Assembly: GCA_964472075.1 (NCBI GenBank)
Contig: CAYYIY010000014.1
Coordinates: 16,196-80,195, forward strand
Reading direction: 5' to 3'
Source: an uncultured bacterium
Lineage (GTDB): Bacteria; Muiribacteriota; Ozemobacteria; Ozemobacterales; Ozemobacteraceae
DNA length: 64,000 nt
The notes beneath the pieces are model-generated. The model ran no database searches. It was given only the letters and a program-made list of their open reading frames with translations, and was not told where the DNA came from. The translations under genes were made by a program, and so were the position numbers. Below are positions 19,346 through 62,655 of this stretch, in pieces. Each line of letters opens with the position of its first letter. Position 1 is the first letter of the stretch.

Positions 19346-19348
19346 GGT

Positions 19349-19972
19349 ATGGCCGGCAAGATCAAGAAAACGAGACCGGAACTGCTGCGACAGCGGCGGT
19401 TGCTGGCGCAGTTCAAGCGCTATCTGCCGACGCTGACCCTGAAAAAGCAGCAGATCCAGTCTGAGATCCTCAAGCTGCGCAATCAGCTTCGTGAAACCCT
19501 GCGTCAGATGCAGGAAAAGATCGATCACGTCGATTCGTGGACGGCCCTGTTCAGCGAATCGCTGCCCGGGCCGATCACGCGTCTGGTCAAGGTGGCCGAA
19601 GTGAAGCGGCGCGATCAGAACATTGCCGGCATCACGCTGCCCTTTCTTGATTCCGTCACCTATGAGATCCTGCCCTACAGCCGTAGATCAACCCCGCTGT
19701 GGGTTGACTGCGGCGTCGAAATCGTGAAGGAACTGATGGAACTGCGTGAAAAAGCCAAGGTCATGCAGGATGCCGAGAAGGTCTTGCAGCACGAGTTGCG
19801 CAAGGTTACGCAGCGTCTGAATCTCTTCGAGAAGGTCAAGATTCCGCAATCACAGGAAGCGATCCGCGTCATTCGCATTGCACTGGCCGATGAACAGACC
19901 GCGGGCGTCGGCCGGGCCAAGATCGCCAAAGCGAAGACCCAGGCGGAGCCGACCACGGGGGCGAGTTCATGA
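19349..19972 (+). CDS. atpD: V-type ATP synthase subunit D
   Basis: RYLPTLTLKKQQI and TQRLNLFEKVKIP motifs. Confidence 0.95.
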   Translation: MAGKIKKTRPELLRQRRLLAQFKRYLPTLTLKKQQIQSEILKLRNQLRETLRQMQEKIDHVDSWTALFSESLPGPITRLVKVAEVKRRDQNIAGITLPFLDSVTYEILPYSRRSTPLWVDCGVEIVKELMELREKAKVMQDAEKVLQHELRKVTQRLNLFEKVKIPQSQEAIRVIRIALADEQTAGVGRAKIAKAKTQAEPTTGASS

Positions 19973-21795
19973 TCACTCCGATGAAAAAAGTCTTTATTGC
20001 CGGTCGCGAAGCTGATCGGCAAGAGGTTCTCACCGCCCTGCAGGAAGCCGGGGTCATGCATGTCGTTCCGGTTGACGCCTCGACCATGAAGCCGACCGTC
20101 GAAGTGAACCAGGACATCGAACGAACGGAGCGAGCGATTGCCGGTCTGGCCGAAGTGCAGACGGCGGGGTCGCCGCTCGAGTATCCGGGTACTCCCTCAC
20201 GCCTCGTTGATGAGTATTACGAGTTGTCTGAACGGGTACAATGGAACTCGGCAATGCAGGCCGAGACACAGAAGAAGATTCAGGATACCGCCGTTTGGGG
20301 CGCTCTGGACGTCGAGTCGCTCGAGGTGCTTCGACAGAACGGGTTGTCGGTTCGCTTCTTCGCATGGAACACAGATCAGGTGCGCGCCATTGAGGCCGAT
20401 GCCATGCAGATTGTGCGTGAAGTGAGCGGCGTGGCGTATGCCGTCGTTGCCTCGCGAAAACCGGTGCAGGTACCGGCGGGTGTCAGCGAAATTCCGGCTC
20501 CGGTGCGCGAAGGAAGGGACCTGGAACAGGATCTCGAAAAACTGAAGGCGGAGAGACGCGACCTGTTCGAGAATCTGCAGCGTATTCGTCTGCGGCTTCC
20601 CGAGATTAAAAACTATGTTGACGAACTGCGCGAACGCAAGCGGTTTCAGGAAGTGGAAATGGGTCTTCTGGCTGAGGGGCCGATCTTCGTTTGTACAGGT
20701 TGGGTTCCCGTAGATCTCTTTGACAATCTTCAGGAGAAGCTGGCGAAATCCGGACGGCGAGTGGCAATACAGAGCGCTGATCCGGGCGATGAAGATGCGC
20801 CGCCGACCAAGTTTCTCAACGCGGTCTGGTGCAAGCCGATCGAAGCTCTCTATGGCGCATTCGGCGTCTTTCCGGGCTATCGCGAGCCGGATATCAGTCT
20901 CTTCTTCCTGCCGTTCCTCTCGATCTTTACGGCCATGCTGATTGCCGATGCCGGGTATGCGCTGGTCGTCCTGGCGATTCTTGCCGCGGTGTATCGGCCC
21001 GCGGTTCGCTCGGGCGTGCCGAGCCAGTTTCTGCATCTGTTCGGGGTTCTCTTCGGGGCCACGTTTGTGTTTGGGGCACTGACGAACTCCTGGTTCGGTG
21101 CTTCCATCGGTTTCCTCAAGGGAATCACCCTGCTTGATCCGTCGAGTGCCGCCGGTCAGGGCATCTTGAAGAAGCTCTGCTTCGTCATCGGGGCGGTGCA
21201 TCTGACAATCGCGCATGCCTGGAAGACCCTGCGCAAGCCGAACCCCTACGAAGCCGCTTCGCTTTCGGAAGTCGGCTGGATCCTCTTCATCTGGGTCATG
21301 TTCGATCTGGTCGGCTACCTGGTGCTCGGCGAGGCTCTGCCGGAGCGCACCAAACTCATGACCATCATTTCCCTGGGTCTGGTGCTGTTTTTCACCGCTC
21401 CGTCCTGGAATCCGCTGGCGGCGGTCTGGAGCGGCTCCGGGGCCATCGCTCTGAGCGCGGCCGGCTTCCTGTCTGACATCATCAGTTACATTCGTCTGTG
21501 GGCGGTCGGGTACGCGGGAGCCATGCTGGCGTCGAGCTTCAATACCATGATCGGCGGCATCTGGGCCTATGGTTCGTATCAACCGGCACCGATGGTCATT
21601 GCCGCACTGTTGTTCATCGCGGCACACCTGTTGAATCTGGCTCTGGGTCTGGTGGCGATCTTCGCCCATGGCGTGCGCCTGAATCTGCTCGAGTTCTCGA
21701 ATCATCTCGGAATTGAATGGGTCGGCCGTCCGTACGATCCGTTCCGTCGTTTAACCGGCGGGGAAAGCCCCTCCGGCTCGGATAAAAACCTTTGA
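19969..21795 (+). CDS. atpI: V-type ATP synthase subunit I
   Basis: PPTKFLN, DAGYAL, DIISYIRLWAVG (essential Arg), HGVRLNLLEF. Confidence 0.95.
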   Translation: MITPMKKVFIAGREADRQEVLTALQEAGVMHVVPVDASTMKPTVEVNQDIERTERAIAGLAEVQTAGSPLEYPGTPSRLVDEYYELSERVQWNSAMQAETQKKIQDTAVWGALDVESLEVLRQNGLSVRFFAWNTDQVRAIEADAMQIVREVSGVAYAVVASRKPVQVPAGVSEIPAPVREGRDLEQDLEKLKAERRDLFENLQRIRLRLPEIKNYVDELRERKRFQEVEMGLLAEGPIFVCTGWVPVDLFDNLQEKLAKSGRRVAIQSADPGDEDAPPTKFLNAVWCKPIEALYGAFGVFPGYREPDISLFFLPFLSIFTAMLIADAGYALVVLAILAAVYRPAVRSGVPSQFLHLFGVLFGATFVFGALTNSWFGASIGFLKGITLLDPSSAAGQGILKKLCFVIGAVHLTIAHAWKTLRKPNPYEAASLSEVGWILFIWVMFDLVGYLVLGEALPERTKLMTIISLGLVLFFTAPSWNPLAAVWSGSGAIALSAAGFLSDIISYIRLWAVGYAGAMLASSFNTMIGGIWAYGSYQPAPMVIAALLFIAAHLLNLALGLVAIFAHGVRLNLLEFSNHLGIEWVGRPYDPFRRLTGGESPSGSDKNL

Positions 21796-21810
21796 AGAAG
21801 GAGTTCGTAT

Positions 21811-22275
21811 ATGTTTCTTGAGATCATTGGCAGGTTGTCTGGTGGGTTGGTTCTGGGTCTGGGCGGTATCGGCAGTTGTCTCGGCATTCTGGCAGCCGCT
21901 CAGGCAGCCGCGGGCGCCTGGGCTGCGGAAGGTAAGGCCGGCAAGAACCCGTCGTTTCAGTATGTCATCATGATCGCCGCGCCGATCTCTCAGACGCTCT
22001 ACGCCATGATCGTCATGATGAACGGAATGATGGCGATCAAGAACGTGACGCCCCATTCCGGCATGGTCATGCTCGGTGTCGCCATCGGCGTCGGTCTGAT
22101 CGAGCTTGCTTCCGCCTGGGGTCAGGGCCTGGTCGGTGCCGCCGGTGTCCGCTGTCTGAACGAAAACGGCGGCAAGGGCTTCGGCTTCATCATCGTCGCC
22201 CTCGGCATCATCGAAACCGTCGGTATCTTCGGCATGGTTTTCGGTCTGATGCTGCTTGGTTCCGTCGCCGGGTAA
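21811..22275 (+). CDS. atpK: V-type ATP synthase subunit K (four-helix proteolipid)
   Basis: Four hydrophobic Gly-rich helices; PISQTLY, WGQG and IIETVG ion-binding motifs. Confidence 0.95.
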   Translation: MFLEIIGRLSGGLVLGLGGIGSCLGILAAAQAAAGAWAAEGKAGKNPSFQYVIMIAAPISQTLYAMIVMMNGMMAIKNVTPHSGMVMLGVAIGVGLIELASAWGQGLVGAAGVRCLNENGGKGFGFIIVALGIIETVGIFGMVFGLMLLGSVAG

Positions 22276-23865: not shown

Positions 23866-25527
23866 ATGTTTTGTTATCAGTGTGAACAGACCGCGCAGTG
23901 CAAGGGATGCACTTCTTTCGGCGTGTGCGGCAAAGACCCGCAGACCGCGGCATTGCAGGATCTGCTGATCCAGGCGACCAAGGGCGTGGCGATGTATGCG
24001 CATCGGGCACGCGAACTGGGAGTAAAAGACGCGAAGCTCGATCACGCGGTTACCGAAGCATTGTTCACCACGGTGACGAATGTGAATTTCGACCCCAAAC
24101 GTCTCGAGACGCGCATTCGCGAGATGGCCGCGCACATCGAAACGGCGCGCAAACTGTATGAAGGCGCCGCGGCGAAAGCCGGCAAGACACCTGAAAAGCT
24201 CGACGGCCCGGCGACCTTCAAGCCGGCTTCAAGCCTCGAGGCGATGGTCAAGCAGGGTGAGGAAGTCGCGATTCCCACCCGCCGCGAAAAGATCGGTGAA
24301 GATCTGAGCGGTTTGCAGGAGCTGCTGACCTACGGTTTGAAAGGCACGGCTGCCTATGCCGATCACGCGATGATTCTGGGCAAGGAAGATGACGCGATCT
24401 ATGCGTTCTTCCATAAAGCGCTCGACTATCTGGCCAAACCTTCTCCTGATCTTAACGTTCTGGTCGGCCTGTGCATGGAGTGCGGCCAGGTCAATCTGAA
24501 GACGATGGAACTGCTGGACGCGGCCAACACTGGTCACTACGGTCACCCGGTGCCGACCAAGGTGCGCGTTGAGCCGGTGAAGGGCAAGGCGATTCTGGTT
24601 TCCGGTCACGATCTGCTCGACCTCGAACATCTGCTGAAGCAGACCGAGGGCAAGGGCATCAACATCTATACCCACGGCGAAATGCTTCCGGCGCACGGAT
24701 ACCCTGAACTGAAAAAGTACAAACACCTGGTCGGCAACTATGGCGGTGCCTGGCAGGATCAGGCCAAGGAATTCGACGCGTTCCCCGGCGCGATTCTGAT
24801 GACCACCAACTGCATTCAGAAGCCGCGCGATACCTACAAGGCCCGCATCTTTACCTCCGGTCTGGTTGCCTGGCCCGGCGTGACGCACATCAGCGATCGG
24901 AACTTCGCACCGGTCATCAAGGCGGCGCTTGAGGCCCCCGGCTTCACGGCGGACGGTGCGAGCAAGGAGATCATGGTCGGCTTCGGTCGCAATGCGGTCA
25001 TGAGCGTGGCCGGAAAGGTCATCGAAGCGGTCAAGGCCGGACAGATCAAGCATTTCTTCCTGGTCGGCGGCTGTGACGGTGCCAAGTCGGGACGCAACTA
25101 CTACACCGAGTTTGTTGAGAAGGCCCCGAAAGATACCGTGATTCTGACCCTGGCCTGCGGAAAGTATCGGTTCAACAAGATGGATCTCGGCGATATCGGC
25201 GGGATTCCGCGGTTGCTGGATATCGGCCAGTGTAACGATGCCTACTCGGCGGTGCAGATTGCGGTGGCGCTGGCGAAGGCCTTTAACACTGACGTGAACG
25301 GCCTGCCGTTATCGATGGTTCTTTCCTGGTATGAGCAGAAAGCGGTCTGTATTCTGCTGACCCTGCTCTCGCTGGGCGTGAAGAACATCCGCCTGGGGCC
25401 ATCTCTGCCGGCCTTCGTGACTCCGAATGTTCTGAAGTTCCTGGTCGAGAAGTTCAATATCATGCCGATCGGCAACAGCGCCGCCGACGATCTGAAGGCC
25501 ATTCTGGGCAGCAACTTCAAGGGCTGA
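23866..25527 (+). CDS. hcp: Hydroxylamine reductase / hybrid cluster protein
   Basis: MFCYQCEQTA...GCT..GVCGK, HTHGEMLPAHGYP-type motif, GGCDG, GQCNDAYS, SWYEQKA. Confidence 0.97.
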   Translation: MFCYQCEQTAQCKGCTSFGVCGKDPQTAALQDLLIQATKGVAMYAHRARELGVKDAKLDHAVTEALFTTVTNVNFDPKRLETRIREMAAHIETARKLYEGAAAKAGKTPEKLDGPATFKPASSLEAMVKQGEEVAIPTRREKIGEDLSGLQELLTYGLKGTAAYADHAMILGKEDDAIYAFFHKALDYLAKPSPDLNVLVGLCMECGQVNLKTMELLDAANTGHYGHPVPTKVRVEPVKGKAILVSGHDLLDLEHLLKQTEGKGINIYTHGEMLPAHGYPELKKYKHLVGNYGGAWQDQAKEFDAFPGAILMTTNCIQKPRDTYKARIFTSGLVAWPGVTHISDRNFAPVIKAALEAPGFTADGASKEIMVGFGRNAVMSVAGKVIEAVKAGQIKHFFLVGGCDGAKSGRNYYTEFVEKAPKDTVILTLACGKYRFNKMDLGDIGGIPRLLDIGQCNDAYSAVQIAVALAKAFNTDVNGLPLSMVLSWYEQKAVCILLTLLSLGVKNIRLGPSLPAFVTPNVLKFLVEKFNIMPIGNSAADDLKAILGSNFKG

Positions 25528-28597: not shown

Positions 28598-28836
28598 GCT
28601 TACCGGCAGATGCGATGATGCTTACAGATGATTGTTGTCGAATCTCGTGATGAGAAGACGAGTGACGAACGGGAGAGTGAACCCCGCATGGGGCGAGTTT
28701 GCGAATCAGTGAACCTGCTTGCTGTTGAATGCTTTTGCACGAAATCGCGTGTATGCAACGGGCGAGGTGTGCTATCTTGATCTGTCCGGTCGATTTTATG
28801 GGATCCCGGTGAAGAACCGCGGCAGGAGTGCGTTGT

Positions 28837-31800
28837 ATGGCGTATGTTTCAGAGTTCTTTTCGGGCGTGCTGAACCTGATGTTCACGCTGCTCAACAGTT
28901 TTGTCACCTGGTTGAGCTTCAGTTCCGAAATTGAAAACATGGTTGATGCGGTCAACCATAAGATCGATGAGCCGCCGACTCGCATCGGCCATCGCATGAG
29001 CTCTCACCCGGGCGGTTTTGTGAAAATTGTCGGCAAGCGGCGACTCAACATGGCCGGGGCGTATATCAAGATTTCGAATGATCACGCCCCGCAGGATGCC
29101 GCGGAACGTCTGGCTGCCCTGAAAATGCTGGCCGAAGAGGCTTTGCATGCCAAGACGATCAGTATGCCGCTGAACACGGCCCGCGTGCAGATCGCTCTCA
29201 TGAAGAAGGTCGTCAAGTCGCAAGGGAACAAACGACGACAGATGGAGGCCATGTCGGATTTCGGATTGGCTTCGTACGGCAACGAGTCAACCATCCGTGA
29301 CTTTCTCAAGCGGAATAGTTTGATCGAGGTTCCTGAGCTTGATGCGCCGCTGAAGTCGATCGACATGGGCTGGGACGATCACGTTCACGATTTTCTTTCA
29401 GAGGGTCGCAAGACCCCGACGCAGGTGATTCTCGACGCCTTCGTGAAAGGCATTTCACGGCTTACGTTGGTGCATTCGACGATCGATCAGCCACAGTTGA
29501 TTCATGAGGCGATCAGCGCGGGAAACATTCTCGGCATCGACGTACAGATCGGTATCGAATTCAGCGTCGGTAGAAGCAACAATCGCCGGCATTACATGTT
29601 CATTCCGCCGCGGGTGGAAAACAGTCAGGAGTTTTTCCGATTTTTCTACGATCATAACGAACAATTGGAACCGTTTCTGCGAGGCCTGCGTGCCAATTCA
29701 GAAAAGCGCCAGAAGACCATGCTGCTGGCCATGGAGCGTTTCAACACGACCATGCTGCCGAAGATCAATGCGGGTTATCAGCCGCACATGCCGGGCTGGG
29801 TACAACCTCTGGCCTGGAAAGATCTTGATGCCTACATTGTGTGCGGGCAGGTGAATCGGGTGCATCTGGCGGCGTTGCTGTATAACTCGATGCTGCGGGG
29901 GTATCATGCCCGCGTGCTCGAACTGAAGACTCAGGTTCTGGCCGCGGAGGAACGATTTCGACTCGGGTTATACAGCGAGTGGGAGATGAAGAACGTCTCG
30001 AGTCAGTATCACAATGTACGCCGGATTTACGAGAATATGTCGCCGGAAGGACTGATGGCGCAGTATCTTGATAATCGTGACGTGCTTGATTATGACAGCG
30101 AGTTTGTCGATGAGGCCCCTCTGCTCGATATTCTGTATGAATTGGGCGGTTCCATTCTCTGGATTCACCCCCTGGAACTAGGGTTGAAGGAAGCGGTGAC
30201 TCATCTGGTGCAGAACTGTCACCGACTGACTCATATCGAAACGCTCAATCTGCGCGACAGTGTGCAGCGGAACCCAGAGACGATCAATCTCTTCAGCAGA
30301 TTCGTTCATCTGTTCAATAATCAGCCGCTGAGCGAGATCAGACATTATCTTGATCAGAACGATATTCAAACCTTGACGATAGAAGAGGTTGAGAGGCAGA
30401 GGCGAGGCATGGGAGAACGGCGTCTGGTGCCTGTATGCGGCAGCGATTCGACCGGCCGCGATGTCGCCATTCCCGGCATGGGGTTCATTCAGTCCTCGCG
30501 CATTCCGGAAGCCGTGAGAAGTTCATTTCGTGAGCATCATTTCCGACTGGCGCGTCCGGTGGCTCAGTTGATTCTGAGTAAGGGAGCTGATCCAAAAGGC
30601 ATGCAGGGAGCACCCGAGGATCAGGACATCATCTGCATGGGGAAAATCGGGCGACCGATGCATAACAGCGTTGGAGACGAACCGCCGGAACATCATTTCA
30701 ATGTCTTTCGCTTCTGGCACTATCTGAATTCGACCATCAAGAACTCTGTTCGCATCGCTATCGGCTTTTCGGCGGCTTTGTACTGGATGAATTATCAGTA
30801 TGCTCTGGCGGCCGGCCTCTTTTTCGCGTGTCTCTGGTTCTTCATCACCGGATTCCGCAATTTCCTGGTCGATATGATTGCCTCGTCGGGCACGGATTTT
30901 CGTTCATGGGCCCTGAAGAACGTGAACTTCGACAACCTCGCACAATCACTCTACTGGACAGGCTTCAGCGTGCCGTTGCTCGGACTGGTGAAGATGCAGT
31001 ATGACGAACTCTGGCCTCTGGAAAAAACCGGCATGCTGTTTGAGACGGTGAAGTTCTTCTTCATCTGTTTCGCCAACGGGACCTACATCGTTTTTCACAA
31101 TCGGTTGCGGAACTTCGATCGAAAGGTGATGAAGGCGAACTTCTTCCGGACGATGATTGCGTTTCCTTTTGCCACGGTGTTTTCGCCGATCGGCAACGCT
31201 ATGGGAATTCCATCAATCGTCCAGGCCAAGTTCTGGTCAGACTTCGTCGCCGGGCTTATTGAGGGAAGTGGGAAGTTCCGACAGCGTTTTGTGCTGCGCC
31301 AACGGGATCTCAAGGAACTTCTGCCGCGACTCTACTCGATGGATCGCGATGCCCGTCTGACGGCCATGCTCGACATCTTGTACATCTGGGCGCGACAACC
31401 TCGCGGCAAGACATGCCTGGCTCACCTGTTGTTGCAAAGCCGCTCGTGGTGGGTGAAGGTAAAAGAATGGTGGTATGGCCGCGAGACGCCGGAAGAGGTG
31501 AAGAAAATTCAGGGGCAGTACTACCAGTATTACGAACGGATCTGTGAGCTGTATATCGATACCGGTTGTTTGCTGAACATGACGCAGTTCATTCTGAATC
31601 GATTTTCCGGCCGAGATGCCGTCTTGTTGACGAAGCTGGTCGGCGAGGAATTGGAAACTTTCCGCACCTGGCTGCGTGCCCTGCGATCTCATTACGACGA
31701 GAAAAAGCCCGAGTATGTGGACGTCAAAGAATATCTCCCACCGGCTTTGCAGAAAGAAGACACCTTCGTGATGCCTCAGAGCATCGATGAGCTGAAGCAG

Positions 31801-31854
31801 ATGAAGGAGCCTGCGACCTCTGACTCCCACAAGCCGGAGTCGAAAGCTTCGTAA
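28837..31854 (+). CDS. Large PHP-domain-like protein fused to a multi-pass membrane domain
   Basis: DDHVHDFLSEGRKTP, GIEFS, WIHP and GSDSTG resemble PHP motifs; several TM helices after about residue 640; RBS AGGAG before ATG 28837. Confidence 0.65.
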   Translation: MAYVSEFFSGVLNLMFTLLNSFVTWLSFSSEIENMVDAVNHKIDEPPTRIGHRMSSHPGGFVKIVGKRRLNMAGAYIKISNDHAPQDAAERLAALKMLAEEALHAKTISMPLNTARVQIALMKKVVKSQGNKRRQMEAMSDFGLASYGNESTIRDFLKRNSLIEVPELDAPLKSIDMGWDDHVHDFLSEGRKTPTQVILDAFVKGISRLTLVHSTIDQPQLIHEAISAGNILGIDVQIGIEFSVGRSNNRRHYMFIPPRVENSQEFFRFFYDHNEQLEPFLRGLRANSEKRQKTMLLAMERFNTTMLPKINAGYQPHMPGWVQPLAWKDLDAYIVCGQVNRVHLAALLYNSMLRGYHARVLELKTQVLAAEERFRLGLYSEWEMKNVSSQYHNVRRIYENMSPEGLMAQYLDNRDVLDYDSEFVDEAPLLDILYELGGSILWIHPLELGLKEAVTHLVQNCHRLTHIETLNLRDSVQRNPETINLFSRFVHLFNNQPLSEIRHYLDQNDIQTLTIEEVERQRRGMGERRLVPVCGSDSTGRDVAIPGMGFIQSSRIPEAVRSSFREHHFRLARPVAQLILSKGADPKGMQGAPEDQDIICMGKIGRPMHNSVGDEPPEHHFNVFRFWHYLNSTIKNSVRIAIGFSAALYWMNYQYALAAGLFFACLWFFITGFRNFLVDMIASSGTDFRSWALKNVNFDNLAQSLYWTGFSVPLLGLVKMQYDELWPLEKTGMLFETVKFFFICFANGTYIVFHNRLRNFDRKVMKANFFRTMIAFPFATVFSPIGNAMGIPSIVQAKFWSDFVAGLIEGSGKFRQRFVLRQRDLKELLPRLYSMDRDARLTAMLDILYIWARQPRGKTCLAHLLLQSRSWWVKVKEWWYGRETPEEVKKIQGQYYQYYERICELYIDTGCLLNMTQFILNRFSGRDAVLLTKLVGEELETFRTWLRALRSHYDEKKPEYVDVKEYLPPALQKEDTFVMPQSIDELKQMKEPATSDSHKPESKAS

Positions 31855-42028: not shown

Positions 42029-42041
42029 GGAGGAAACGACG

Positions 42042-47939: not shown

Positions 47940-47951
47940 GGAGGCCGATCG

Positions 47952-49034: not shown

Positions 49035-49047
49035 GGAGGAAACGACG

Positions 49048-49803: not shown

Positions 49804-49818
49804 AACCGGAGGAAACCG

Positions 49819-53232: not shown

Positions 53233-54753
53233 TCAGAGGATGGAAATGCGTTCCAGCTCGGATAGTGTGATGGTGCCTGCAGCGACGGCTTCGGCACCGG
53301 CGCGCAGAAGGGTGCGGCGCGGCGGCTTCTGAAGCGCTCGACCGATGGCACGACGATCGCCGGTCTGCAGAGTATCCTTAAAGGTTTTGGCCGGCGTGAA
53401 GATCTCGTAGAGGGCAAGGCGGCCTCGATAGCCGCTTTGATTGCACTTTTCACAACCTTTGCCGAGACGCGCCTTCATGGGGAGTCCGGCGCCGCCGTAT
53501 CTCTTGAGAGCCGCGGCCGACACCCTGGCGGGAACGGCGCATGAAGGGCACACCTTGCGGGCCAGCTGTTGCACGACGACGCCGGTGAGAGCCGAAGCCA
53601 GCAAATGGGGCGGAGCTTTCAAATCGAGCAGTTTGCCGATGACCTCTTCGACCGACGAGGCATGCATGGTCACGAAGATCAGGTGGCCGGTGAGAGCCAG
53701 TTTCAGGATCCTGTCCATGGCTTTTTCGTCAGGGATGTCACTGACATAGATGACATCGGGGTCGCCGCGATCGATGGCCGCGAGCAGAGCCGAGCAGGTC
53801 AGCCCGAGATGGGGTCGGACATGGGTTTGTGCAATACCCGGCAGGATCATCTCATACGGAGCCTCAACGGTAGCGAGGTTGCGCTGTCCTTTCTCACGCA
53901 GCTGCTGAAGAGCGTGGTAGGCCGTTGTCATCTTGCCCGAGCCGTGCGGGCCGGCGATGACCACCAGGCCGAACGGAGAGTTGATCAGACGTTGAAAAGC
54001 CGCACGATCGTCCGGGTTGGGGAAAAGAACTTCCGGCTTCCACTGCTGTTCTTCCTGAATCAGCAACCGCATGGTAATGGTTTCACCAAGGGCGGTCGGT
54101 AGCACGTTGACCCGGATGTCGACGGACTTGCCCTTGATCTCAACGACCATGCGCCCATCCTGCGGCAACATGTGTTCCGCCACGTCAAGGCAGGCCTTAT
54201 ATTTCGCGCATGAGGTAAGAGTTTCCTTGAACGTCAGCCCGTACTCTTTCCCATCGACCAACACGTTGTCGACGCGGAAACGCACGCGCATGCCCTCCGG
54301 AAGAGGCACGAGAATCAGATGAGACGCCCGGCGATCCACGGCTTCCTGCAGTAATGAGAAGAGCTCCTGCTCAAACGCCTGCCGCTGATCGGAGTGACTG
54401 TCCGAGTTGTCGGCTGACGATTCGGCCATGGATCCCATGAAGGGGATCAGGCCGTCACGCACGCCCTGGGCGATCTTGGGCATCATGACATCGAGCGTGC
54501 CCTGGTTTTCTCCGGCACGAGCCATGCTGATGTATGAGGCCGAGAACACGGTGGGAACGGAAGCGAGGGCGTCGCAGAAGCTGCTGCCGCTCGAGATGCT
54601 GTGCAGGATCCGGCGTGTCGCATCAGCCATGATCGGGTCCGGGGTTTCGACGGCGATCGTTTCGAGAGCCGCCATCAACGGAACACCGGAGCCGAGAAAG
54701 AAGCCGAGTTTATCGGAAAATGCCGCCAGTGATTCTTTGAGGTCGGTAGACAT
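53233..54753 (-). CDS. Fusion of a soluble T2SSF/PilC domain to a GspE/PilB-type ATPase with degenerate catalytic motifs
   Basis: N-terminal FSDKLGFFLGSGVPL...ARAGENQGTL (T2SSF); RVRFRVD, DGRM, GPHGSGKMTT, DPDVIYVSDIPD, TGHLIFVTMH, CPSC/CEKC, GYRGRLALYE. Confidence 0.85.
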   Translation of the reverse strand: MSTDLKESLAAFSDKLGFFLGSGVPLMAALETIAVETPDPIMADATRRILHSISSGSSFCDALASVPTVFSASYISMARAGENQGTLDVMMPKIAQGVRDGLIPFMGSMAESSADNSDSHSDQRQAFEQELFSLLQEAVDRRASHLILVPLPEGMRVRFRVDNVLVDGKEYGLTFKETLTSCAKYKACLDVAEHMLPQDGRMVVEIKGKSVDIRVNVLPTALGETITMRLLIQEEQQWKPEVLFPNPDDRAAFQRLINSPFGLVVIAGPHGSGKMTTAYHALQQLREKGQRNLATVEAPYEMILPGIAQTHVRPHLGLTCSALLAAIDRGDPDVIYVSDIPDEKAMDRILKLALTGHLIFVTMHASSVEEVIGKLLDLKAPPHLLASALTGVVVQQLARKVCPSCAVPARVSAAALKRYGGAGLPMKARLGKGCEKCNQSGYRGRLALYEIFTPAKTFKDTLQTGDRRAIGRALQKPPRRTLLRAGAEAVAAGTITLSELERISIL

Positions 54754-54840
54754 GGTGAGCCTCCTGTAAGGTGGAACGTAGATTCGTCAGTAACAGGACA
54801 CACGGCGACGGCCGGCGCGCACGGCACATCGATTGAGACA

Positions 54841-55353
54841 TCAGATCAGATCGTAACGGCGATTGATCGGGGCCAGAGCATCGAGCATGGGGCGTCGGGT
54901 CGATTCGGCTTCCATGCGTCTGAGAAACGCTTCAAGAGCGGGGCGTCGAACCCGGATCGCGCCGCCGATGTTCAGATGCGGAAGCTCGACGAGCAGACTG
55001 CGAGCCTGTTCGAGATCGACACGAAGATAAGCGGCAACCTCGCTGAGCGTCAGAATGTCGTCTGACAGAACGGCGCTACCGGTCGAGGCTGTCGGCACGG
55101 GAGCAGCCTCGCGTGATTTCGAGGTTTCGAGCGGGGTCGACAGACCGAGCATCTTCAAGGCTCCAGCCAGAGCACGGTCGCCACCGTTCGGCAGCGGATC
55201 GCTGACACTCTTCATCTGCCGCTCCAGGGCGGTGTACGATGCACGGCAGGAGGGGCAGGCGTCGAGATGATGACGTGCTTCGGCAGGGGATTCGGATTCG
55301 TTGTAGAAGAGGTCGAGAAGGTCCTGTTCCGTCAGACAGTGTTTAGTTGTCAT
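54841..55353 (-). CDS. Zinc anti-sigma (ZAS) domain fused to an HTH_17/excisionase-like domain
   Basis: HLDACPSC (HxxxCxxC); ILTLSEVAAYLRV...GGAIRVRRPALEAFL. Start set at ATG 55353 (RBS GGAG), overlapping the sigma gene end. Confidence 0.75.
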   Translation of the reverse strand: MTTKHCLTEQDLLDLFYNESESPAEARHHLDACPSCRASYTALERQMKSVSDPLPNGGDRALAGALKMLGLSTPLETSKSREAAPVPTASTGSAVLSDDILTLSEVAAYLRVDLEQARSLLVELPHLNIGGAIRVRRPALEAFLRRMEAESTRRPMLDALAPINRRYDLI

Positions 55354-55876
55354 GGTCGTCTCCAAGAAGTTCGCGGAGTTTGCGAACGGCGAACAGCACG
55401 CGAGATTTCGCGGTAGCAACTGGTACTTCCTGAACTTCGGCGACTTCGACGAAGGTAAGATCGGCGAAGTGTTTCAACAGAAAAGCCTCGCGGATCGGTT
55501 CAGACAGCTGGGCCAAGGCTTCCCGCACCACGTGCGGGGTCTCAGACGGCGGCGCGAACGTCTGTTGCTGCGCGAGTTCTTCGGGGCGGTGGAAGGGCAC
55601 GATCTTGCGCTCGCGGCGCTTGAACTCGAGGAACTTGTTGCGAGCGATGGTGAAGACCCAGGGCTTGAGCGGGCGGTCCGGGTTCCAGGTTTCGCCACGG
55701 GTGCAGAGGGTAACCAGGGTTTCCTGCAGCAGGTCTTCGGCGATGACCGGGTTGCGGGTGAGGCGATAGAGAAACCCGAAGAGAGGGGCTTTCAGCGTGG
55801 TCAGCAGCCGAATCTGAGCGGACCGATCGCCGCTCAGAAACTGCCGCATCATCGTTTCCCAGGTTTCGTTGTTCAT
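55343..55876 (-). CDS. ECF sigma-70 factor
   Basis: AEDLLQETL, WVFTIARNKFLE (region 2); REAFLLKHFADLTFVEVAE...ATAKSRV (region 4.2). Confidence 0.92.
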   Translation of the reverse strand: MNNETWETMMRQFLSGDRSAQIRLLTTLKAPLFGFLYRLTRNPVIAEDLLQETLVTLCTRGETWNPDRPLKPWVFTIARNKFLEFKRRERKIVPFHRPEELAQQQTFAPPSETPHVVREALAQLSEPIREAFLLKHFADLTFVEVAEVQEVPVATAKSRVLFAVRKLRELLGDDHDN

Positions 55877-55896
55877 GGTGTTTCAACAGGTAATAT

Positions 55897-55935
55897 GAAC
55901 GAGAGGTCGAAATGGATTGATGCCGAAGAAAAAAA
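55897..55935 (-). promoter_or_regulatory. Candidate ECF autoregulatory promoter
   Basis: Minus strand has a T-tract, then GCATC-17 nt-CGTTC, 20 nt upstream of the sigma start. The assignment is inference from general ECF promoter layout. Confidence 0.3.
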
Positions 55936-56000
55936 GTTTTCGGGGGGCAAAATCGGCCGCTCGCGGGCTTTCAGAGCGCTCGACACGATTGGGGTTCCGC

Positions 56001-59237: not shown

Positions 59238-60646
59238 TCACTGTGAAAGCATTTTTTGGCATTTACACAGGGTGTGTCCGCAGTACCATTCGTTGCATAC
59301 CGAACACTTTTTTTTGGGACCGCAGGATTCACATCTCGGCCAGGCGACGGCTTGTCCTATCCCGGAAGAGGACGAGGCACATTCGCATTTGGGAGCCGCC
59401 GCGCAGTAGGTTTGACGACAGAAGTCGCAGGTCCAGGTGTTCGGGCAGGGAGGCGGATAGTTGCACCATCGACATCGTTGCACGACTCCCAGACAAGGCA
59501 AATGGGCATCGTAGGCGGCCTGGTCGATGAAGCTTTTCTGACAAACACGTCGCATGTCGGACCACCCGCCGGCGGTGACGAGGCAATGTCGCTACAAGGG
59601 CACGGTGGCGACTGAGGGCATCTCTTGGCCTTACATTTGCTGCAGATTTCGAAATGCGCTTGAAAAAGCTCGACGGTGTCGAACGTTCGATTGCACGTGG
59701 GGCAGAATCTGGAGCCTGTCCCGGCGCTTCCTGAAGCGGGGGCGCCGAAACCAGGCAGCGACGGGTCGGCGGCTCCGGGGAGCGAGCCGATGAGCACCTG
59801 TTCGTCAGGCGTTGGAGCCATGGGGTCGCCGGGGGGCGGGGGAGGCGGAGGCGCTGGATTCTGCGCGAGGAGGGAGTCGGTCTGAGTGGTGGGAGCCGTT
59901 GGTTCACCCGTGCTGCCGGGGAATCCAGGCGGCGACGTGAGTCCGCCGGGATTGAAGGCCGGGAGTGTGCCGTATAAATTGGGAAGTCCGGTGGGGGGAG
60001 GCGGCAAGCCGAGTCGGAAAACCGGCGGAAGGGCCGGGGGTCTTGCGCCGAGTACTTGGGCAATGTCTCGAATGTCCGTGAGTGTCGTGAGGGTTTGAAT
60101 CATCTGTTCGGCTTGCGGGCGCTTGTTCTTGCGATCCGTCAGAAGCTGAGTGATCTTCGAACCGTACGATGTGCCGCCGGCCGGAAAGTTCTTGGCATCG
60201 ATCTCGCTGAACAGTAGAGTCTTCAGCTGAGCCGGGTCAAGCAGATCAGGAATGTGCTCGACGCGCCAGACATAGACCCGAGGAGTTTTTACGACCGTGA
60301 CCCTCGCATAGATATCAGCCTGGTTCGGTGCACCCGGCGCATTCTCGACATACAGGTCATAACGGGCGCCGAGGTAGGATAGCCCGTTTTCGGCTACTGG
60401 AGCGGACTTGAAGAACCTTTCTTCCCAGGGTTTCAGATAGATTCTGGCGAGTACACGCTGAAACCCGGAGTAAGCAACCTGAAACGAAACTTGTTGTTCG
60501 TTTGTGTGCTGGACCTGGGTGCGCAGCCCCTGATTCATTACTGATACCGTGAATCCGAAAAACGTCAGGCTGACGGCGGCGCACAATGCCAGTAACAAGG
60601 CATACCCACGGGCAGAACCTCTCGAAAAAACCTGCGATGGCAACAT
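59238..60646 (-). pseudogene. PilX-like minor pilin with Pro-rich linker and very Cys-rich C-terminus; frameshift near 59543-59548
   Basis: ARG|YALLLAL...QVSFQVAYSG PilX-type N-terminus (RBS GGAG). After PTCDV the Cys-rich pattern continues in the frame of ORF 59238-59555; removing 2 nt restores TCDVCQKSF, parallel to the upstream FCPTCNRTF. Real lesion versus sequencing error is unresolved. Confidence 0.65.
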
Positions 60647-60671
60647 GCTCATTCTCCGACACGAATTGCTT

Positions 60672-60698
60672 ATATTCAGTATAATAAATAATGAATAT
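60672..60698. promoter_or_regulatory. AT-rich divergent promoter region with an inverted repeat around a perfect TATAAT
   Basis: ATATTCA-13 nt-TGAATAT; TATAAT at 60680-60685; the AT-rich gap contrasts with GC-rich flanks. Confidence 0.45.
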
Positions 60699-60730
60699 TT
60701 CTGGAACTTTTGTAATGCGGGAATTTCAGA

Positions 60731-61255
60731 ATGAGAAGAGGCGGGTTCACTTCGATCGAGTTGCTGGTTGTGGCAGCGATTCTGGCCATGGTGATTGCCA
60801 TCGGCCTGCAATTGGTTTTCAGCCGCAATCAGGCCGAACAGAGTCTGATGGGCAGACTCAGTCTTCAGAGTGATGCGCGCAAAGTTGCGGATATGCTCAT
60901 TGCCCGTGTTCGAGAGGGAGCGGAAGTCGTGCGTCCGTTTCTGGGTGAAACACGCAACTACATGGTGTATCTCGATGGGGTAAACAATACCTGCATGATC
61001 TACATGACCGAAGACGCTGAAAACACCAAGAAATTCAATAGGCCTTTGTACAAGCTCATTTCATACACGCATACCTATACGGGGTCGGGTTTTCAGCCGC
61101 AACAGGAAAGGGTTCTCGGCACGGCGCTGCAGCGAGTGGCATTCACCACGATTTCCCCGAACAGCGTACAAGTTACGGCGACGATTGCGAATGAAAAGTC
61201 CGAGTTTCAGTTTGTCACACACGCAGGGTTGCTGAATTTTGGAGGAGCGAAATGA
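60731..61255 (+). CDS. Prepilin-type minor pilin (PilW/GspJ-like)
   Basis: RRGG|FTSIELLVVAAIL class III signal peptide. Confidence 0.85.
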   Translation: MRRGGFTSIELLVVAAILAMVIAIGLQLVFSRNQAEQSLMGRLSLQSDARKVADMLIARVREGAEVVRPFLGETRNYMVYLDGVNNTCMIYMTEDAENTKKFNRPLYKLISYTHTYTGSGFQPQQERVLGTALQRVAFTTISPNSVQVTATIANEKSEFQFVTHAGLLNFGGAK

Positions 61256-62655
61256 ACTATTCTCGTGGTCCGCGTGGGTTTACCCTGCCGGAATTGCTGA
61301 TCGGACTCGGCATCATGAGTTTTCTGGCGGTCGCTTTCTTTGTCTTTTTGCAGTCGAGCAGTCGTCAGAGTGCGTTCAGCGCGGAGCACTTCACCGGGGT
61401 TCTGCTGGCTCAGAAGGTAACAGAGGATCTCGCCGAAGAGACAACGACGAATCCGCACGCGTTTCTCGCCCTGGGCATGAGCGGCACGCCCGCCCCCACG
61501 CCGATCATTGATGGGCAATCAACGTTTTTCGCGTATCTCGAAGACCGATATCCGCCGCTCGGGCAGATTGATCCGGCAGGTGAGGGAACGATTGATGCAA
61601 ACTACGAGCCGCTGTACAGGCAGGTGAAGGAATTCACTCTGGGTGTATCAGGAAAACCTCTGGCCTCGGTCGGCGGCTTCGATGAGAAAAAGCATCTCAG
61701 CGAAGCGCAGCTCGATTTTGTCTGGAAGACGCAAACCGGTATCGGGCGATACTCGTCGAGCTGTCTCTATTTCACGCCTTCAACCGCCAAGCCCGTGTCA
61801 AACGTGGTAACCATCAATCAGAGCGATGTCGATGCCGAGATCTGTCGCCGATTCTTTCGCACTCCGGGCGGTGACCTCACGCAGTTGACCACGACGTATG
61901 GGGGAGATCGTGACACCATTCGGGCCATCGGTACAATTTTTGTGGTGACGCATGCGTTTGCGCAGTCGACGACCACGAAAAATCTACTGCAGCAACAGAA
62001 AACCCAGCAAAGCCAGGTGGATCTATTCGGGTCGAACCAGAATGACACGGCATATCAGGCCCGCAAGTCTCTGGCGGAAACCAACTATGAGCTGGCGAAA
62101 CTCTGCTTTCAGGTCTGTCATGCCCTGCAGCCTTCGATTGACCGACTGCAGAATCGCATGAACCAGAATCAGCTTGGACAAGTGCTCTGGACGTATCCGA
62201 ACCGGTACGCTTATGGTCTGCAGACACTGGATCGCATCTACAAGACGTTTGTAACCAGTCTGTCATCGTCCGCCGCACATTATCGCCGTCTGCTCGATTA
62301 TCCGCAGGCGATCGCCCGCGGTCCGCGAGAATTTCAGGATATCGTTTCCCGGGTGATCACTCTTGAAAGAACGGCCGTGATGCTTCCGGAACTGACGAGC
62401 GCCATGACGACCTATCGCCGTACGCTCGACGACTTCCGCATTTTTTCTCAGGGTCGCAATCCGTTTCTCAATCGATTCGTCATGCAGGAAAAGCAGTTCG
62501 CGCTGACGACAACGAAGCTTACCGAAAAGCATCCGCACCTGGCGACGGTCAGAAGTATTGCCGGAGAAAGCATGGTTCGGTATTACAACTCCCTGCGCAA
62601 TCTCCCTGCTAGTCCGTTGAATCCGATGTCTCCGAGTGCCACGGCAAAAAATTAA
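61252..62655 (+). CDS. Large prepilin-type protein (PilV-like head plus long helical extension)
   Basis: PRG|FTLPELLIGLGIM class III signal peptide; 467 aa. Confidence 0.8.
   Translation: MNYSRGPRGFTLPELLIGLGIMSFLAVAFFVFLQSSSRQSAFSAEHFTGVLLAQKVTEDLAEETTTNPHAFLALGMSGTPAPTPIIDGQSTFFAYLEDRYPPLGQIDPAGEGTIDANYEPLYRQVKEFTLGVSGKPLASVGGFDEKKHLSEAQLDFVWKTQTGIGRYSSSCLYFTPSTAKPVSNVVTINQSDVDAEICRRFFRTPGGDLTQLTTTYGGDRDTIRAIGTIFVVTHAFAQSTTTKNLLQQQKTQQSQVDLFGSNQNDTAYQARKSLAETNYELAKLCFQVCHALQPSIDRLQNRMNQNQLGQVLWTYPNRYAYGLQTLDRIYKTFVTSLSSSAAHYRRLLDYPQAIARGPREFQDIVSRVITLERTAVMLPELTSAMTTYRRTLDDFRIFSQGRNPFLNRFVMQEKQFALTTTKLTEKHPHLATVRSIAGESMVRYYNSLRNLPASPLNPMSPSATAKN

What the first reader, a model, noticed from the sequence alone, without database searches (positions are those of the whole stretch)
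53233..54753. Soluble PilC-domain-PilB fusion with degenerate catalytic motifs, encoded in an ECF sigma operon
Seen: a T2SSF/PilC cytoplasmic domain with no following TM helix is fused to a GspE/PilB ATPase lacking its usual N1 domain. Relative to family consensus several motifs are altered: Asp box TIEDPVE becomes TVEAPYE, Walker B VGEIRD becomes VSDIPD (catalytic Glu and Arg changed), LRxxLRQDPD becomes LAAIDRGDPD, and ASDIH becomes ASHLI. The Walker A Lys, His box and four Zn-binding Cys remain. Known: PilC/GspF is the natural docking partner of PilB/GspE. Inference: this is an ATP-binding but weakly hydrolysing decoy that could join or block motor hexamers or the platform, giving stress-induced (ECF-controlled) shut-off of pilus assembly or secretion. 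I know of no description of such a module.
Basis: partly seen in the sequence, partly recalled or inferred. Interest (0 to 1): 0.72.

Follow-up and report, generated by a model that had tools for sequence, protein, structure and literature searches.

The report
Pilus-motor-like protein in a sigma-factor cassette
A soluble protein made from two pieces of the bacterial pilus/secretion motor is always encoded as the third gene of a small sigma-factor/anti-sigma-factor cassette in several phyla, which suggests that a motor protein was recruited for gene regulation; in this genome's lineage it has lost several residues needed to burn ATP.

Summary
ORF 53233-54753 (-) encodes a 506-aa soluble fusion of one PilC/GspF cytoplasmic domain (T2SSF) to a PilB/GspE ATPase core without the N1 domain. 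It lies downstream of an ECF sigma gene and a cytoplasmic zinc-type anti-sigma gene.

It is neither a misassembly nor a lone decaying copy. I found 77 N-terminal fusions of this kind. Their ATPase cores form essentially one clade. In 13 of 13 loci examined the gene order is ECF sigma, then ZAS anti-sigma with an excisionase-type wHTH, then the fusion, usually with overlapping genes and unrelated flanks. No pilus genes are conserved nearby.

Catalytic residues that never vary in 188 canonical PilB/GspE sequences vary repeatedly in this family. The window belongs to a Riflebacteria subclade that shares the altered Asp box and Walker B. That subclade is under strong purifying selection (dN/dS 0.09-0.17).

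Best reading: a dedicated third component of an ECF signalling cassette, acting as a nucleotide-state switch or scaffold on the anti-sigma. This is inferred, not shown. I found no published description.

The parts
55877..56000 (-). Intergenic region upstream of the sigma gene; presumed promoter of the cassette
   Evidence: 124 nt lie between the AbgT stop and the sigma ATG. A stretch (poly-T, ATCAATC, CTCGTnCATAwT) is shared with the Riflebacteria locus L002. The ECF-type motif GAAAC-N16/17-TGTTTA found in Planctomycete-type loci is not present here, so the promoter is not identified.
55343..55876 (-). ECF (group 4) sigma factor, 177 aa
   Evidence: Pfam Sigma70_r2 (3.1e-14) and Sigma70_r4_2 (3.1e-9); NCBIfam sigma70-ECF TIGR02937 scores 72 bits against a cut-off of 42.9. 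Orthologous sigma genes stand first in the sigma-containing module loci; two loci, L090 and L091, are cut off before that position.
54841..55353 (-). Cytoplasmic anti-sigma factor, 170 aa: N-terminal ZAS domain (C6, H29-x3-C33-x2-C36), disordered linker, C-terminal excisionase/BldC-type winged HTH, conserved tail ...NRRYDLI
   Evidence: Its start overlaps the sigma stop by 11 nt. Pfam HTH_17 at aa 123-168 (8.2e-6). C6, H29, C33 and C36 are invariant in 24 homologs. The AF2 model has helices 9-68, a disordered stretch 74-97, a wHTH at 100-136 and a helix at 137-168. Foldseek best matches are BldC, Xis, RdfS and TraN. No TM segment.
54754..54840 (-). 87-nt spacer between the anti-sigma gene and the fusion gene, with AGGAGG before the ATG
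   Evidence: No terminator-like or sigma-70-like site was found. In other loci this spacer is 13-19 nt, or the genes overlap.
53233..54753 (-). T2SSF-T2SSE fusion protein, 506 aa (the finding)
54457..54747 (-). PilC/GspF first-cytoplasmic-domain-like six-helix bundle (aa 3-99)
   Evidence: Pfam T2SSF 3.6e-14. PDB sequence matches to PilC 3jc8_C, PilC-NTD 2whn and EpsF 2vma/3c1q. AF2 helices H3-21 through H87-99.
54382..54456 (-). Flexible linker (aa 100-124), replacing the N1/MshEN domain of PilB/GspE
   Evidence: pLDDT below 50 for aa 108-119. No PF05157 match.
53248..54381 (-). PilB/GspE-type N2 plus C-terminal ATPase domains (aa 125-502)
   Evidence: Pfam T2SSE 5.8e-78. PDB phmmer match to PilB 5tsg, 7e-67. 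Foldseek TM 0.9.
53929..53952 (-). Walker A, GPHGSGKM: Lys kept, Thr/Ser replaced by Met (private to this sequence)
   Evidence: The 76%-identical L090 has GSGKT.
53851..53871 (-). Asp box, TVEAPYE: Mg-binding Glu kept, Asp lost (lost in all 6 clade members)
   Evidence: Residue role from PMC5424180.
53728..53754 (-). Atypical Walker B plus catalytic residue, VIYVSDIPD: catalytic Glu is Asp, Arg is Pro
   Evidence: D339 aligns with the catalytic E395 of G. metallireducens PilB.
53653..53694 (-). His box, LTGHLIFVTMHASS: both His kept
53443..53550 (-). Tetra-Cys zinc motif (CPSC ... CEKC)
   Evidence: invariant in alignments A1 and A2.

Best explanation
The gene is the third, co-expressed component of a conserved three-gene ECF signalling cassette: an ECF sigma factor, a cytoplasmic zinc-type (ZAS) anti-sigma factor with a C-terminal excisionase/BldC-like winged HTH, and a soluble PilC-domain/PilB-core NTPase. 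The NTPase descends from the assembly motor of type IV pili and type II secretion, but has lost the membrane-anchoring N1 domain and has no membrane platform. I propose that it no longer builds a filament. Instead it forms a PilB-like hexamer whose nucleotide state, or simply its presence as a scaffold, controls whether the anti-sigma factor holds or releases the sigma factor. The likely contact is between the anti-sigma wHTH and its lineage-specific C-terminal tail on one side, and the T2SSF bundle or the hexamer on the other. In the Riflebacteria lineage that includes this window, ATP turnover has become dispensable. The residues for nucleotide binding and hexamer formation are kept, while the hydrolysis residues have drifted, so here the protein probably acts as an ATP-binding, non-hydrolysing or very slow switch or scaffold. 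SHOWN: the architecture, the obligate synteny, co-transcription signals, the single origin of the family, relaxed constraint on catalysis, and purifying selection. INFERRED: the physical contact with the anti-sigma factor, the direction of control, and the input signal.
For: (1) Obligate synteny. The order sigma, ZAS/HTH_17, T2SSF-T2SSE is seen in the window and in 12 further loci from different lineages with unrelated flanks: L001-3, L004-6, L007, L008, L009, L085, the P0008 locus, L087, L088, L089, L091 and L092. This includes a reverse test: three anti-sigma homologs chosen without reference to the ATPase are each followed by a fusion gene. (2) Coupling. Sigma and anti-sigma overlap by 4-11 nt. 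Anti-sigma and fusion overlap by about 25 nt or are 13-19 nt apart (87 nt in the window), with no terminator. (3) One ECF-type promoter, GAAAC-N16/17-TGTT[TCA]A, occurs upstream of sigma in the Planctomycete-type loci and only there in each locus (about 0.1 expected per 64 kb). (4) Single origin. In a neighbour-joining tree of ATPase cores, one split holds 76 of 79 fusions. A protein with the opposite domain order (P0104, MshEN-T2SSE-T2SSF) sits in an ordinary pseudopilin operon without an ECF sigma. (5) Relaxed need for catalysis, specific to this family. The Walker A Lys, catalytic Glu, Walker B Arg and both His-box His are unchanged in 188/188 canonical PilB/GspE sequences. In 77 fusions they are changed in 4, 14, 17, 12 and 13 sequences (Fisher p from 7e-3 to 2e-10), in several separate branches. 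(6) The protein is not decaying. dN/dS is 0.09-0.17 against a 76%-identical relative that shares EAPYE, RGDPD and SDIPD. The Mg-binding Glu, the Arg fingers, the His box, the hexamer-contact Arg and the Zn site are kept. (7) No conserved link to pilus or secretion genes in nine other module loci, and no PilB, PilC or PilT elsewhere in the window. (8) The anti-sigma C-terminal tails are conserved within each lineage but differ between lineages, as expected for a co-evolving docking contact. (9) Precedent: M. xanthus PilB signals for EPS production independently of ATP hydrolysis and of pilus assembly (PMC5544727).
Against: As the ECF reclassification paper itself notes, genes conserved next to ECF sigma genes can be targets as well as regulators (PMC7826278). 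The T2SSF domain is the natural docking partner of pilus and secretion motors, which points outward to those machines. About two thirds of the family keep all core catalytic residues, so hydrolysis matters in most lineages, and a pure switch model may not fit them all. The wHTH of the anti-sigma looks DNA-binding and may have nothing to do with the ATPase. The neighbour-joining tree is crude. The canonical comparison set consists of top-scoring hits and may be biased toward conserved sequences.
Confidence: 0.45

Rival explanations
1. Effector or decoy model. The ZAS anti-sigma senses a cytoplasmic stress such as thiol oxidation and releases the sigma factor. The autoregulated operon then raises the level of the fusion protein. 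That protein docks onto canonical PilB/GspE hexamers or PilC/GspF platforms, through its PilC-like bundle or by forming mixed hexamers, and blocks or re-tunes pilus assembly or secretion. In this model the fusion is the output of the cassette, not its regulator.
For: The PilC N-terminal domain and the PilB core are natural partners; the T2SSF and T2SSE identities are confirmed. Catalytically impaired subunits are classic poisons of ring ATPases (general knowledge). The hexamer-contact Arg and the Arg fingers are kept. The cassette's promoter occurs once per locus, so the fusion may be the main regulated product. The window carries two pseudopilin-like genes and a GspK/PilX-like gene 5-8 kb away. 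Protein inhibitors of PilB are known, for example in A. baylyi (PMC8213720, abstract).
Against: No pilin, PilB, PilC, PilT or secretin gene is conserved near the module in nine other loci, while a control canonical operon scores positive. Most family members have a fully canonical active site, which a decoy does not need. Tight overlap with the anti-sigma gene is more typical of complex partners. The forms with two or three T2SSF domains are hard to see as simple caps.
Confidence: 0.27
2. A still-active soluble motor with a non-pilus substrate. The hexamer uses ATP (slowly in this lineage) to remodel or extract a protein or nucleoprotein complex. One candidate is the DNA-bound anti-sigma/sigma complex, given the anti-sigma factor's BldC/Xis-like DNA-binding domain. 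This would work mechanically, like an unfoldase or remodeller, rather than as a binding switch.
For: Most of the family keeps all catalytic residues. The window protein keeps an acidic residue (Asp) at the catalytic position, the Mg-binding Glu, the Arg fingers and the His box. The anti-sigma factor has an excisionase/BldC-type wHTH.
Against: PilT-like ATPases are not known to thread or unfold substrates (general knowledge). Repeated loss of the Walker A Lys or the catalytic Glu in several branches shows that the family's function survives without hydrolysis. The Walker A Thr-to-Met change in the window would be expected to impair Mg-ATP handling.
Confidence: 0.13
3. Non-functional relic or artefact: a misassembled or decaying PilB paralogue that happens to lie next to an ECF operon.
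For: Several catalytic motifs are altered, and the Walker A Thr-to-Met and ASDIH-to-ASHLI changes are private to this sequence.
Against: The same architecture occurs in 77 proteins from independent assemblies. Synteny holds in 13/13 loci. The ORF is intact with a strong RBS. dN/dS is 0.09-0.17. The AF2 model is confident.
Confidence: 0.02

Closest known systems
PilB / GspE (PulE, EpsE) assembly ATPases of type IV pili and type II secretion (Pfam T2SSE PF00437; structures 5tsg/5tsh, 5oiu, 4ksr)
   Same: The N2 and C-terminal domains have the same fold (Foldseek TM about 0.9). Also shared are the Walker A Lys, the Mg-binding Asp-box Glu, two Arg fingers, the His box, the tetra-Cys Zn site and the hexamer-contact Arg.
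   Different: There is no N1/MshEN domain; a PilC-like bundle stands in its place. The catalytic Glu is Asp, the Walker B Arg is Pro, the Asp-box Asp is lost and the Walker A Thr is Met. Scores are far below the NCBIfam equivalog cut-offs (292 vs 630 for GspE; 282 vs 676 for PilB). The gene is encoded with a sigma/anti-sigma pair rather than with pilM-Q, pilC or gspC-N.
PilC / GspF inner-membrane platform protein (Pfam T2SSF PF00482; 2whn, 3c1q)
   Same: The N-terminal 100 aa match the first cytoplasmic six-helix bundle.
   Different: Only one of the two repeats is present in the window protein (relatives have two or three). None of the three transmembrane helices is present, so the protein is soluble and fused to the ATPase.
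Soluble ZAS anti-sigma systems: SigR-RsrA (Streptomyces) and sigmaE-ChrR (Rhodobacter)
   Same: An ECF sigma is co-transcribed with a cytoplasmic anti-sigma that carries the C...HxxxCxxC zinc site. Like ChrR, the anti-sigma has an extra C-terminal domain.
   Different: The extra domain is an excisionase/BldC-type wHTH, not a cupin. A third, obligatory gene for a PilB-like NTPase follows. I found no known ZAS system with such a partner.
M. xanthus PilB as a signalling protein for EPS production (Black et al. 2017, PMC5544727)
   Same: A PilB-type ATPase conveys a regulatory signal through its nucleotide state, independently of hydrolysis and of pilus assembly.
   Different: There it is the bona fide pilus motor moonlighting, upstream of a chemosensory pathway. 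Here it is a dedicated, motor-less paralogue wired to an ECF sigma/anti-sigma pair.
Anti-sigma control by nucleotide-binding or export machinery: SpoIIAB/SpoIIAA partner switching, and FlgM export by the flagellar apparatus (from general knowledge, not tested here)
   Same: The concept that an ATP-binding protein, or a secretion-machine component, sets the availability of an anti-sigma factor.
   Different: There is no homology. SpoIIAB is a GHKL kinase. FlgM is exported through a membrane machine, whereas this protein is soluble.

Membership tests
PilB/GspE-type secretion ATPase (T2SSE superfamily) | N2 plus C-terminal RecA-like ATPase fold | tested here: met
   Pfam PF00437 5.8e-78 over 370/370 profile positions. 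Foldseek TM 0.9 to 5oiu and 5tsh.
PilB/GspE-type secretion ATPase (T2SSE superfamily) | Walker A GxxGxGK[T/S] | tested here: inconclusive
   GPHGSGKM: the Lys is present, the Thr/Ser is Met. 0/188 canonical sequences lack Thr/Ser at this position.
PilB/GspE-type secretion ATPase (T2SSE superfamily) | Catalytic Glu after the atypical Walker B (GE[IV]RD) | tested here: not met
   SDIPD: Glu to Asp and Arg to Pro. Both are unchanged in 188/188 canonical sequences.
PilB/GspE-type secretion ATPase (T2SSE superfamily) | Asp-box Glu (Mg), two Arg fingers, His-box His | tested here: met
   E297, R201, R214, H357 and H364 are present. Residue roles from PMC5424180. The Asp-box Asp is lost.
GspE or PilB proper (NCBIfam equivalogs TIGR02533 / TIGR02538) | Full-length score above the curated cut-off; N1/MshEN domain; tetra-Cys | tested here: not met
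   292.5 bits vs 630.25, and 281.6 vs 675.65. No PF05157 match. The tetra-Cys is present.
GspE or PilB proper | Encoded with platform, pilin and alignment-complex genes | tested here: not met
   No T2SSF-containing gene other than the fusion itself in the 64-kb window. Neighbours are sigma, anti-sigma, AbgT, clostripain and MtaB-like genes.
PilC/GspF platform protein | Two T2SSF repeats separated and followed by three TM helices | tested here: not met
   One T2SSF domain at aa 12-99. No hydrophobic 19-mer above threshold. The AF2 model is all soluble domains.
ECF sigma / class I ZAS anti-sigma pair | Sigma with regions 2 and 4 only; adjacent, overlapping anti-sigma gene with HxxxCxxC | tested here: met
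ECF sigma / class I ZAS anti-sigma pair | Autoregulatory ECF-type promoter (AAC-type -35, spaced -10) upstream of sigma | tested here: inconclusive
   GAAAC-N16/17-TGTTTA is present in the Planctomycete-type loci but not in the window or in the Riflebacteria loci L002 and L004.
ECF sigma / class I ZAS anti-sigma pair | Anti-sigma binds and inhibits the sigma factor | not testable with these tools
   Needs a binding or in vitro transcription assay.
Sigma / ZAS-wHTH / T2SSF-T2SSE cassette (family defined here) | N-terminal T2SSF domain(s) plus T2SSE core, no TM, immediately downstream of an ECF sigma and a ZAS-wHTH anti-sigma | tested here: met
   The window plus 12 other loci. The ATPase cores form one clade.
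Known anti-phage defence systems (PADLOC) | Match to any PADLOC model | tested here: not met
   0 families for all three proteins.

The most novel reading that the evidence does not exclude
A previously unrecognised class of ECF signalling system in which an exapted type IV pilus / type II secretion motor (a PilC domain fused to a PilB core) is the sensor or regulator of a cytoplasmic, DNA-binding ZAS anti-sigma factor. The hexamer's nucleotide state, or its engagement with real pilus or secretion machines, would be transduced directly into sigma-factor release. This would be a pilus-status-to-transcription checkpoint, analogous in logic to FlgM/sigma-28 in flagella, conserved from Planctomycetota to Riflebacteria. 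The Riflebacteria branch would have evolved into a pseudo-ATPase.
Probability: 0.3. Interest if true: 0.85.

Novelty: new variant of a known kind. Interest (0 to 1): 0.66.

Why it matters
PilB/GspE ATPases are regarded as dedicated mechanical motors whose catalytic residues are essentially invariant. This work identifies a monophyletic, multi-phylum branch that has shed its membrane machine, carries its platform partner's domain in cis, tolerates repeated loss of catalytic residues, and is genetically locked to an ECF sigma/anti-sigma pair.

If the protein regulates the anti-sigma factor, this adds a new input mechanism to ECF signalling. Soluble anti-sigma factors with known triggers are few. 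It would also be a clear case of a motor ATPase evolving into a signalling switch or pseudoenzyme. If the protein is instead the cassette's effector, it would be a built-in, transcriptionally controlled inhibitor or modulator of type IV filament machines.

Either way, public databases annotate these genes only as "GspE", "TadA" or "T2SS/T4P ATPase". That labelling would mislead inventories of pili and secretion systems in Planctomycetota, Riflebacteria and related MAGs.

Tried and rejected
(1) Genome-collection scan with the window protein. All 75 hits were canonical pilB-pilC neighbours, which tblastn had joined into apparently full-length matches. The HMM screen showed that none was a fusion or had an ECF sigma.

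(2) Exact look-up of the window protein's own contig: not on record.

(3) Promoter search in the window lineage. A stretch shared by the window and L002 (ATCAATC...CTCGTnCATAwT) is not convincingly shared by L004, and its spacing does not fit an ECF promoter. The Planctomycete-type motif is absent from the window. Eight loose matches in the window look like chance, including one at 60481 that lies inside a coding region. The consensus sigma-70 and terminator scan found nothing.

(4) Literature. Eight full-text searches and several reads found no description of an ECF/T2SSE/T2SSF module. The supplementary group descriptions of the ECF reclassification paper are not held, so a mention there or in ECF Hub cannot be excluded.

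(5) Defence-system and phage libraries gave nothing informative.

(6) Rejected: misassembly or pseudogene (see rivals). Rejected: a membrane-bound protein. The crude hydropathy scan flags 1-3 hydrophobic windows in some relatives, but none in the window protein, and the AF2 model is entirely globular.

(7) A conserved association with pilins was rejected.

(8) Complex prediction of the fusion with the anti-sigma factor was not possible with the tools: single-chain prediction only, and custom concatenated sequences are not accepted.
Full report
**Observation**

The ORF at 53233..54753 on the minus strand encodes 506 aa. A strong AGGAGG ribosome-binding site lies 6 nt upstream of its ATG.

- Pfam finds a T2SSF domain at aa 12-99 (E 3.6e-14) and a complete T2SSE domain at aa 125-502 (E 5.8e-78).
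- NCBIfam places the N-terminal piece on the first cytoplasmic domain of GspF/PilC. The rest matches GspE/PilB downstream of their N1 domains, with scores far below the equivalog cut-offs.
- Sequence search of the PDB gives PilB of Geobacter (7e-67) for aa 133-505, and PilC, the PilC N-terminal domain and EpsF for aa 8-97.
- An AlphaFold2 model built on 18 fusion homologs is confident (pLDDT 87.9). It shows a six-helix bundle (aa 3-99), a disordered linker (aa 108-119) and a PilB core that superposes on PilF and PilB structures with TM about 0.9.
- There is no transmembrane segment.

I mapped the residues onto the roles established for G. metallireducens PilB (PMC5424180).

- Kept: the Walker A Lys, the Mg-binding Asp-box Glu (E297 = E357), both Arg fingers (R201, R214 = R271, R286), both His-box His (H357, H364 = H413, H420), the pore-loop Asp (D342 = D398), the inter-subunit Arg (R399 = R455) and the tetra-Cys site.
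- Changed: the catalytic Glu (E395) is Asp. The Arg of GEIRD is Pro. The Asp of EDP is lost. The Gln of RQDPD is lost.

**Surroundings**

Directly upstream on the same strand lie two genes.

- An ECF sigma factor at 55343..55876.
- A 170-aa cytoplasmic protein at 54841..55353, overlapping the sigma gene by 11 nt. It has a ZAS zinc site (C6, H29-x3-C33-x2-C36) and a C-terminal HTH_17 domain.

Its AF2 model shows a helical anti-sigma domain, a disordered linker and a winged HTH. The best structural matches for the wHTH are BldC, phage and ICE excisionases, and TraN. Those E-values are weak because the domain is only about 50 residues long.

No terminator-like site separates the three genes.

- Further upstream are an AbgT transporter and a clostripain-type peptidase.
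- Downstream, convergent, is an MtaB/MiaB-like radical-SAM enzyme.
- Two pseudopilin-like genes (60731..61255 and 61252..62655, +) and a GspK/PilX-like gene lie 5-8 kb away.
- The window holds no other T2SSF-domain gene and no PilB, PilT, PilM or secretin.

**Relatives**

The closest homologs (48-52% identity, about 500 aa) have the same architecture. They come from Riflebacteria: a Candidatus Riflebacteria MAG and Ca. Ozemobacter sibiricus. More distant fusions (31-36% identity) come from Planctomycetota and unassigned MAGs, and carry one, two or three T2SSF domains.

A profile search of 1.84 billion representatives returned dozens of 50%-identity clusters that match end to end. In total I collected 77 N-terminal fusions.

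In a neighbour-joining tree of ATPase cores, a single split separates 76 of 79 T2SSF-containing proteins from 188 canonical PilB/GspE sequences. The split also includes four sequences without a detected T2SSF domain, two of them about 410-aa fragments. This indicates one origin. The tree is crude and should be redone with maximum likelihood.

**Synteny**

For every N-terminal fusion whose contig I could read, the two genes upstream are an ECF sigma and a ZAS-wHTH protein. This holds for P0003, P0006, P0015, P0020, P0017, P0030 and P0008. In the P0006 locus the gene caller had missed the anti-sigma ORF; it is there.

The reverse test also holds. Three anti-sigma homologs found with an anti-sigma profile, chosen without regard to the ATPase, are each followed by a fusion gene, with 4-nt and 25-nt overlaps.

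A metagenome scan added two more loci. L091 has two tandem fusion genes, and L092 has the standard arrangement.

That makes 13 of 13 loci, with flanking genes different in each. None of the nine other loci I scanned has a pilin-type N-terminus in its flanks, while a control canonical operon (L086) has two. The one protein with the opposite domain order (P0104, MshEN-T2SSE-T2SSF) sits in a normal pseudopilin operon without an ECF sigma.

In the Planctomycete-type loci a clear ECF-type promoter, GAAAC-N16/17-TGTT[TCA]A, lies upstream of sigma and occurs exactly once per locus. This fits an autoregulated three-gene operon. The Riflebacteria loci, including the window, lack this motif, and their promoter remains unidentified.

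**Catalytic motifs across the family**

In 188 canonical PilB/GspE sequences from the same searches, the Walker A Lys, the catalytic Glu, the Walker B Arg and both His-box His are unchanged in every case. In the 77 fusions they are changed in 4, 14, 17, 12 and 13 sequences respectively (Fisher p from 7e-3 to 2e-10). The differences remain significant when the Riflebacteria clade is collapsed to one member. The changes occur in several separate branches, for example:

- Walker A Lys to Thr or Arg in P0126, P0152, P0162, P0204 and P0223.
- Catalytic Glu to Gly, Arg or Ala in P0166, P0169 and P0223.

The window's subclade (P0001-P0006, sister to P0184) shares three losses in all six members: the Asp-box Asp, the RQDPD Gln and the Walker B Arg. 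The catalytic residue is Asp in three of six, and the first His is Arg in three of six.

A 76%-identical partial relative (L090) shares EAPYE, RGDPD, SDIPD and the His box, but has GSGKT. So the Thr-to-Met change, and probably ASHLI, are private to the window sequence. Between the window and L090, dN/dS over 248 codons is 0.09-0.17. dS is 1.0-1.7, near saturation, so the ratio is approximate. The altered ATPase domain is therefore maintained by selection.

**Interpretation**

The following is solid. This is a member of a monophyletic family of soluble PilC-domain/PilB-core proteins. The family is genetically locked to an ECF sigma/ZAS-wHTH anti-sigma pair. Its function tolerates loss of ATP hydrolysis while retaining nucleotide-binding and ring-forming residues.

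The most economical mechanism is that the protein is the third component of the signalling cassette. It would act as a nucleotide-state switch or scaffold on the anti-sigma factor, and in Riflebacteria it would have become a non-hydrolysing or very slow form. Four points support this:

- The translational coupling of the three genes.
- The absence of any conserved pilus context.
- The anti-sigma C-terminal tails, which are conserved within each lineage but differ between lineages.
- The precedent that M. xanthus PilB signals independently of hydrolysis (PMC5544727).

The contact itself, the direction of control and the input signal are inferred, not shown.

The PilC bundle and the PilB core are natural partners of the pilus machine. 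A cassette whose only nearby promoter drives its own operon could have the fusion as its main output. The ECF literature itself warns that conserved neighbours may be targets as well as regulators (PMC7826278). Against the decoy model stand the canonical active sites of most family members and the lack of linkage to pilus genes.

**Novelty**

Eight full-text searches and targeted reading found no description of this module or of T2SSF-T2SSE fusions tied to ECF sigma factors. The reading covered the ECF reclassification paper and a 2024 review of PilB cofactors. The supplementary ECF group descriptions were not available, so a listing of the domain co-occurrence there cannot be excluded. Database names are generic: "GspE", "TadA", "T2SS/T4P/T4SS family ATPase".

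All parts belong to known families. The conserved combination, and the apparent shift of a motor ATPase to a regulatory role, are what is new. I therefore rate it a new variant of a known kind, and of substantial interest.

Noticed in passing
window 60731..61255 (+), 61252..62655 (+), 59357..60811 (-): Two overlapping pseudopilin-like genes with class-III signal-peptide N-termini (RRGGFTSIELLVV..., PRGFTLPELLIG...; Pfam N_methyl 1.3e-4). A divergent 484-aa ORF has a GspK/PilX-like hydrophobic N-terminus (probable true start near 60652), a Pro-rich middle and a Cys-rich C2H2-like C-terminus. No assembly ATPase or platform gene lies nearby. This association with the module is not conserved in other loci.
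   Followed up: partly
window 40708-42800 and 47714-49806: A direct duplication of about 2.1 kb at essentially 100% identity (offset 7006 nt). It covers the alpha and beta subunits of a 2-oxoacid:ferredoxin oxidoreductase. The following gamma-subunit genes are only about 79% identical. This could be a recent duplication, gene conversion or an assembly artefact.
   Followed up: partly
L007, L008, L009, L085, L087, L088, L089 (upstream of the sigma genes): A conserved ECF-type promoter, GAAAC-N16/17-TGTT[TCA]A, occurs once per locus, 30-60 nt upstream of the sigma start. It is usable as a search pattern for the regulon in complete genomes. It is absent from the Riflebacteria-type loci.
   Followed up: partly
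L091 162..1688 and 1692..2372; L088 3418..3738: One metagenomic locus carries two tandem T2SSF-T2SSE fusion genes after the anti-sigma gene. Another has a small stand-alone T2SSF-like ORF (106 aa) just downstream of the fusion gene.
   Followed up: no
anti-sigma homologs P0121-P0125, P0275-P0294 (C-termini): The last 6-10 residues are conserved within each lineage but differ between lineages (..NRRYDLI..SWxLxQKN..YSQLRAV..GGxxWTL). This suggests a short docking or degradation motif that co-evolves with a partner.
   Followed up: no
window 54754..54840: The anti-sigma to fusion spacer is 87 nt in the window. In the other loci it is 13-19 nt or a 25-nt overlap. No promoter-like or terminator-like site was detected, and the significance is unknown.
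   Followed up: partly
window 16318..22275 (+): A V/A-type ATPase operon (A, B, D, I and c/K subunits), followed by a ferredoxin-like gene and a hybrid-cluster protein (Prismane) at 23866..25527. This fits an anaerobic lifestyle.
   Followed up: no
window 10909..12477 (-), 12486..14894 (-), 28828..31854 (+): A FapA-family protein next to an 802-aa protein with four Big_5 Ig-like domains. There is also a 1008-aa ORF with no Pfam match, and several more ORFs without family matches at 1866-6411 and 34024-35655.
   Followed up: no
P0126-P0137, P0139, P0143 (representative search): About a dozen proteins of roughly 1000 aa gave two matches to the ATPase part of the profile, so they look like tandem double PilB/GspE cores. 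P0126 (1047 aa) also has two T2SSF domains and a Walker A Lys-to-Thr change. They were not examined further.
   Followed up: no
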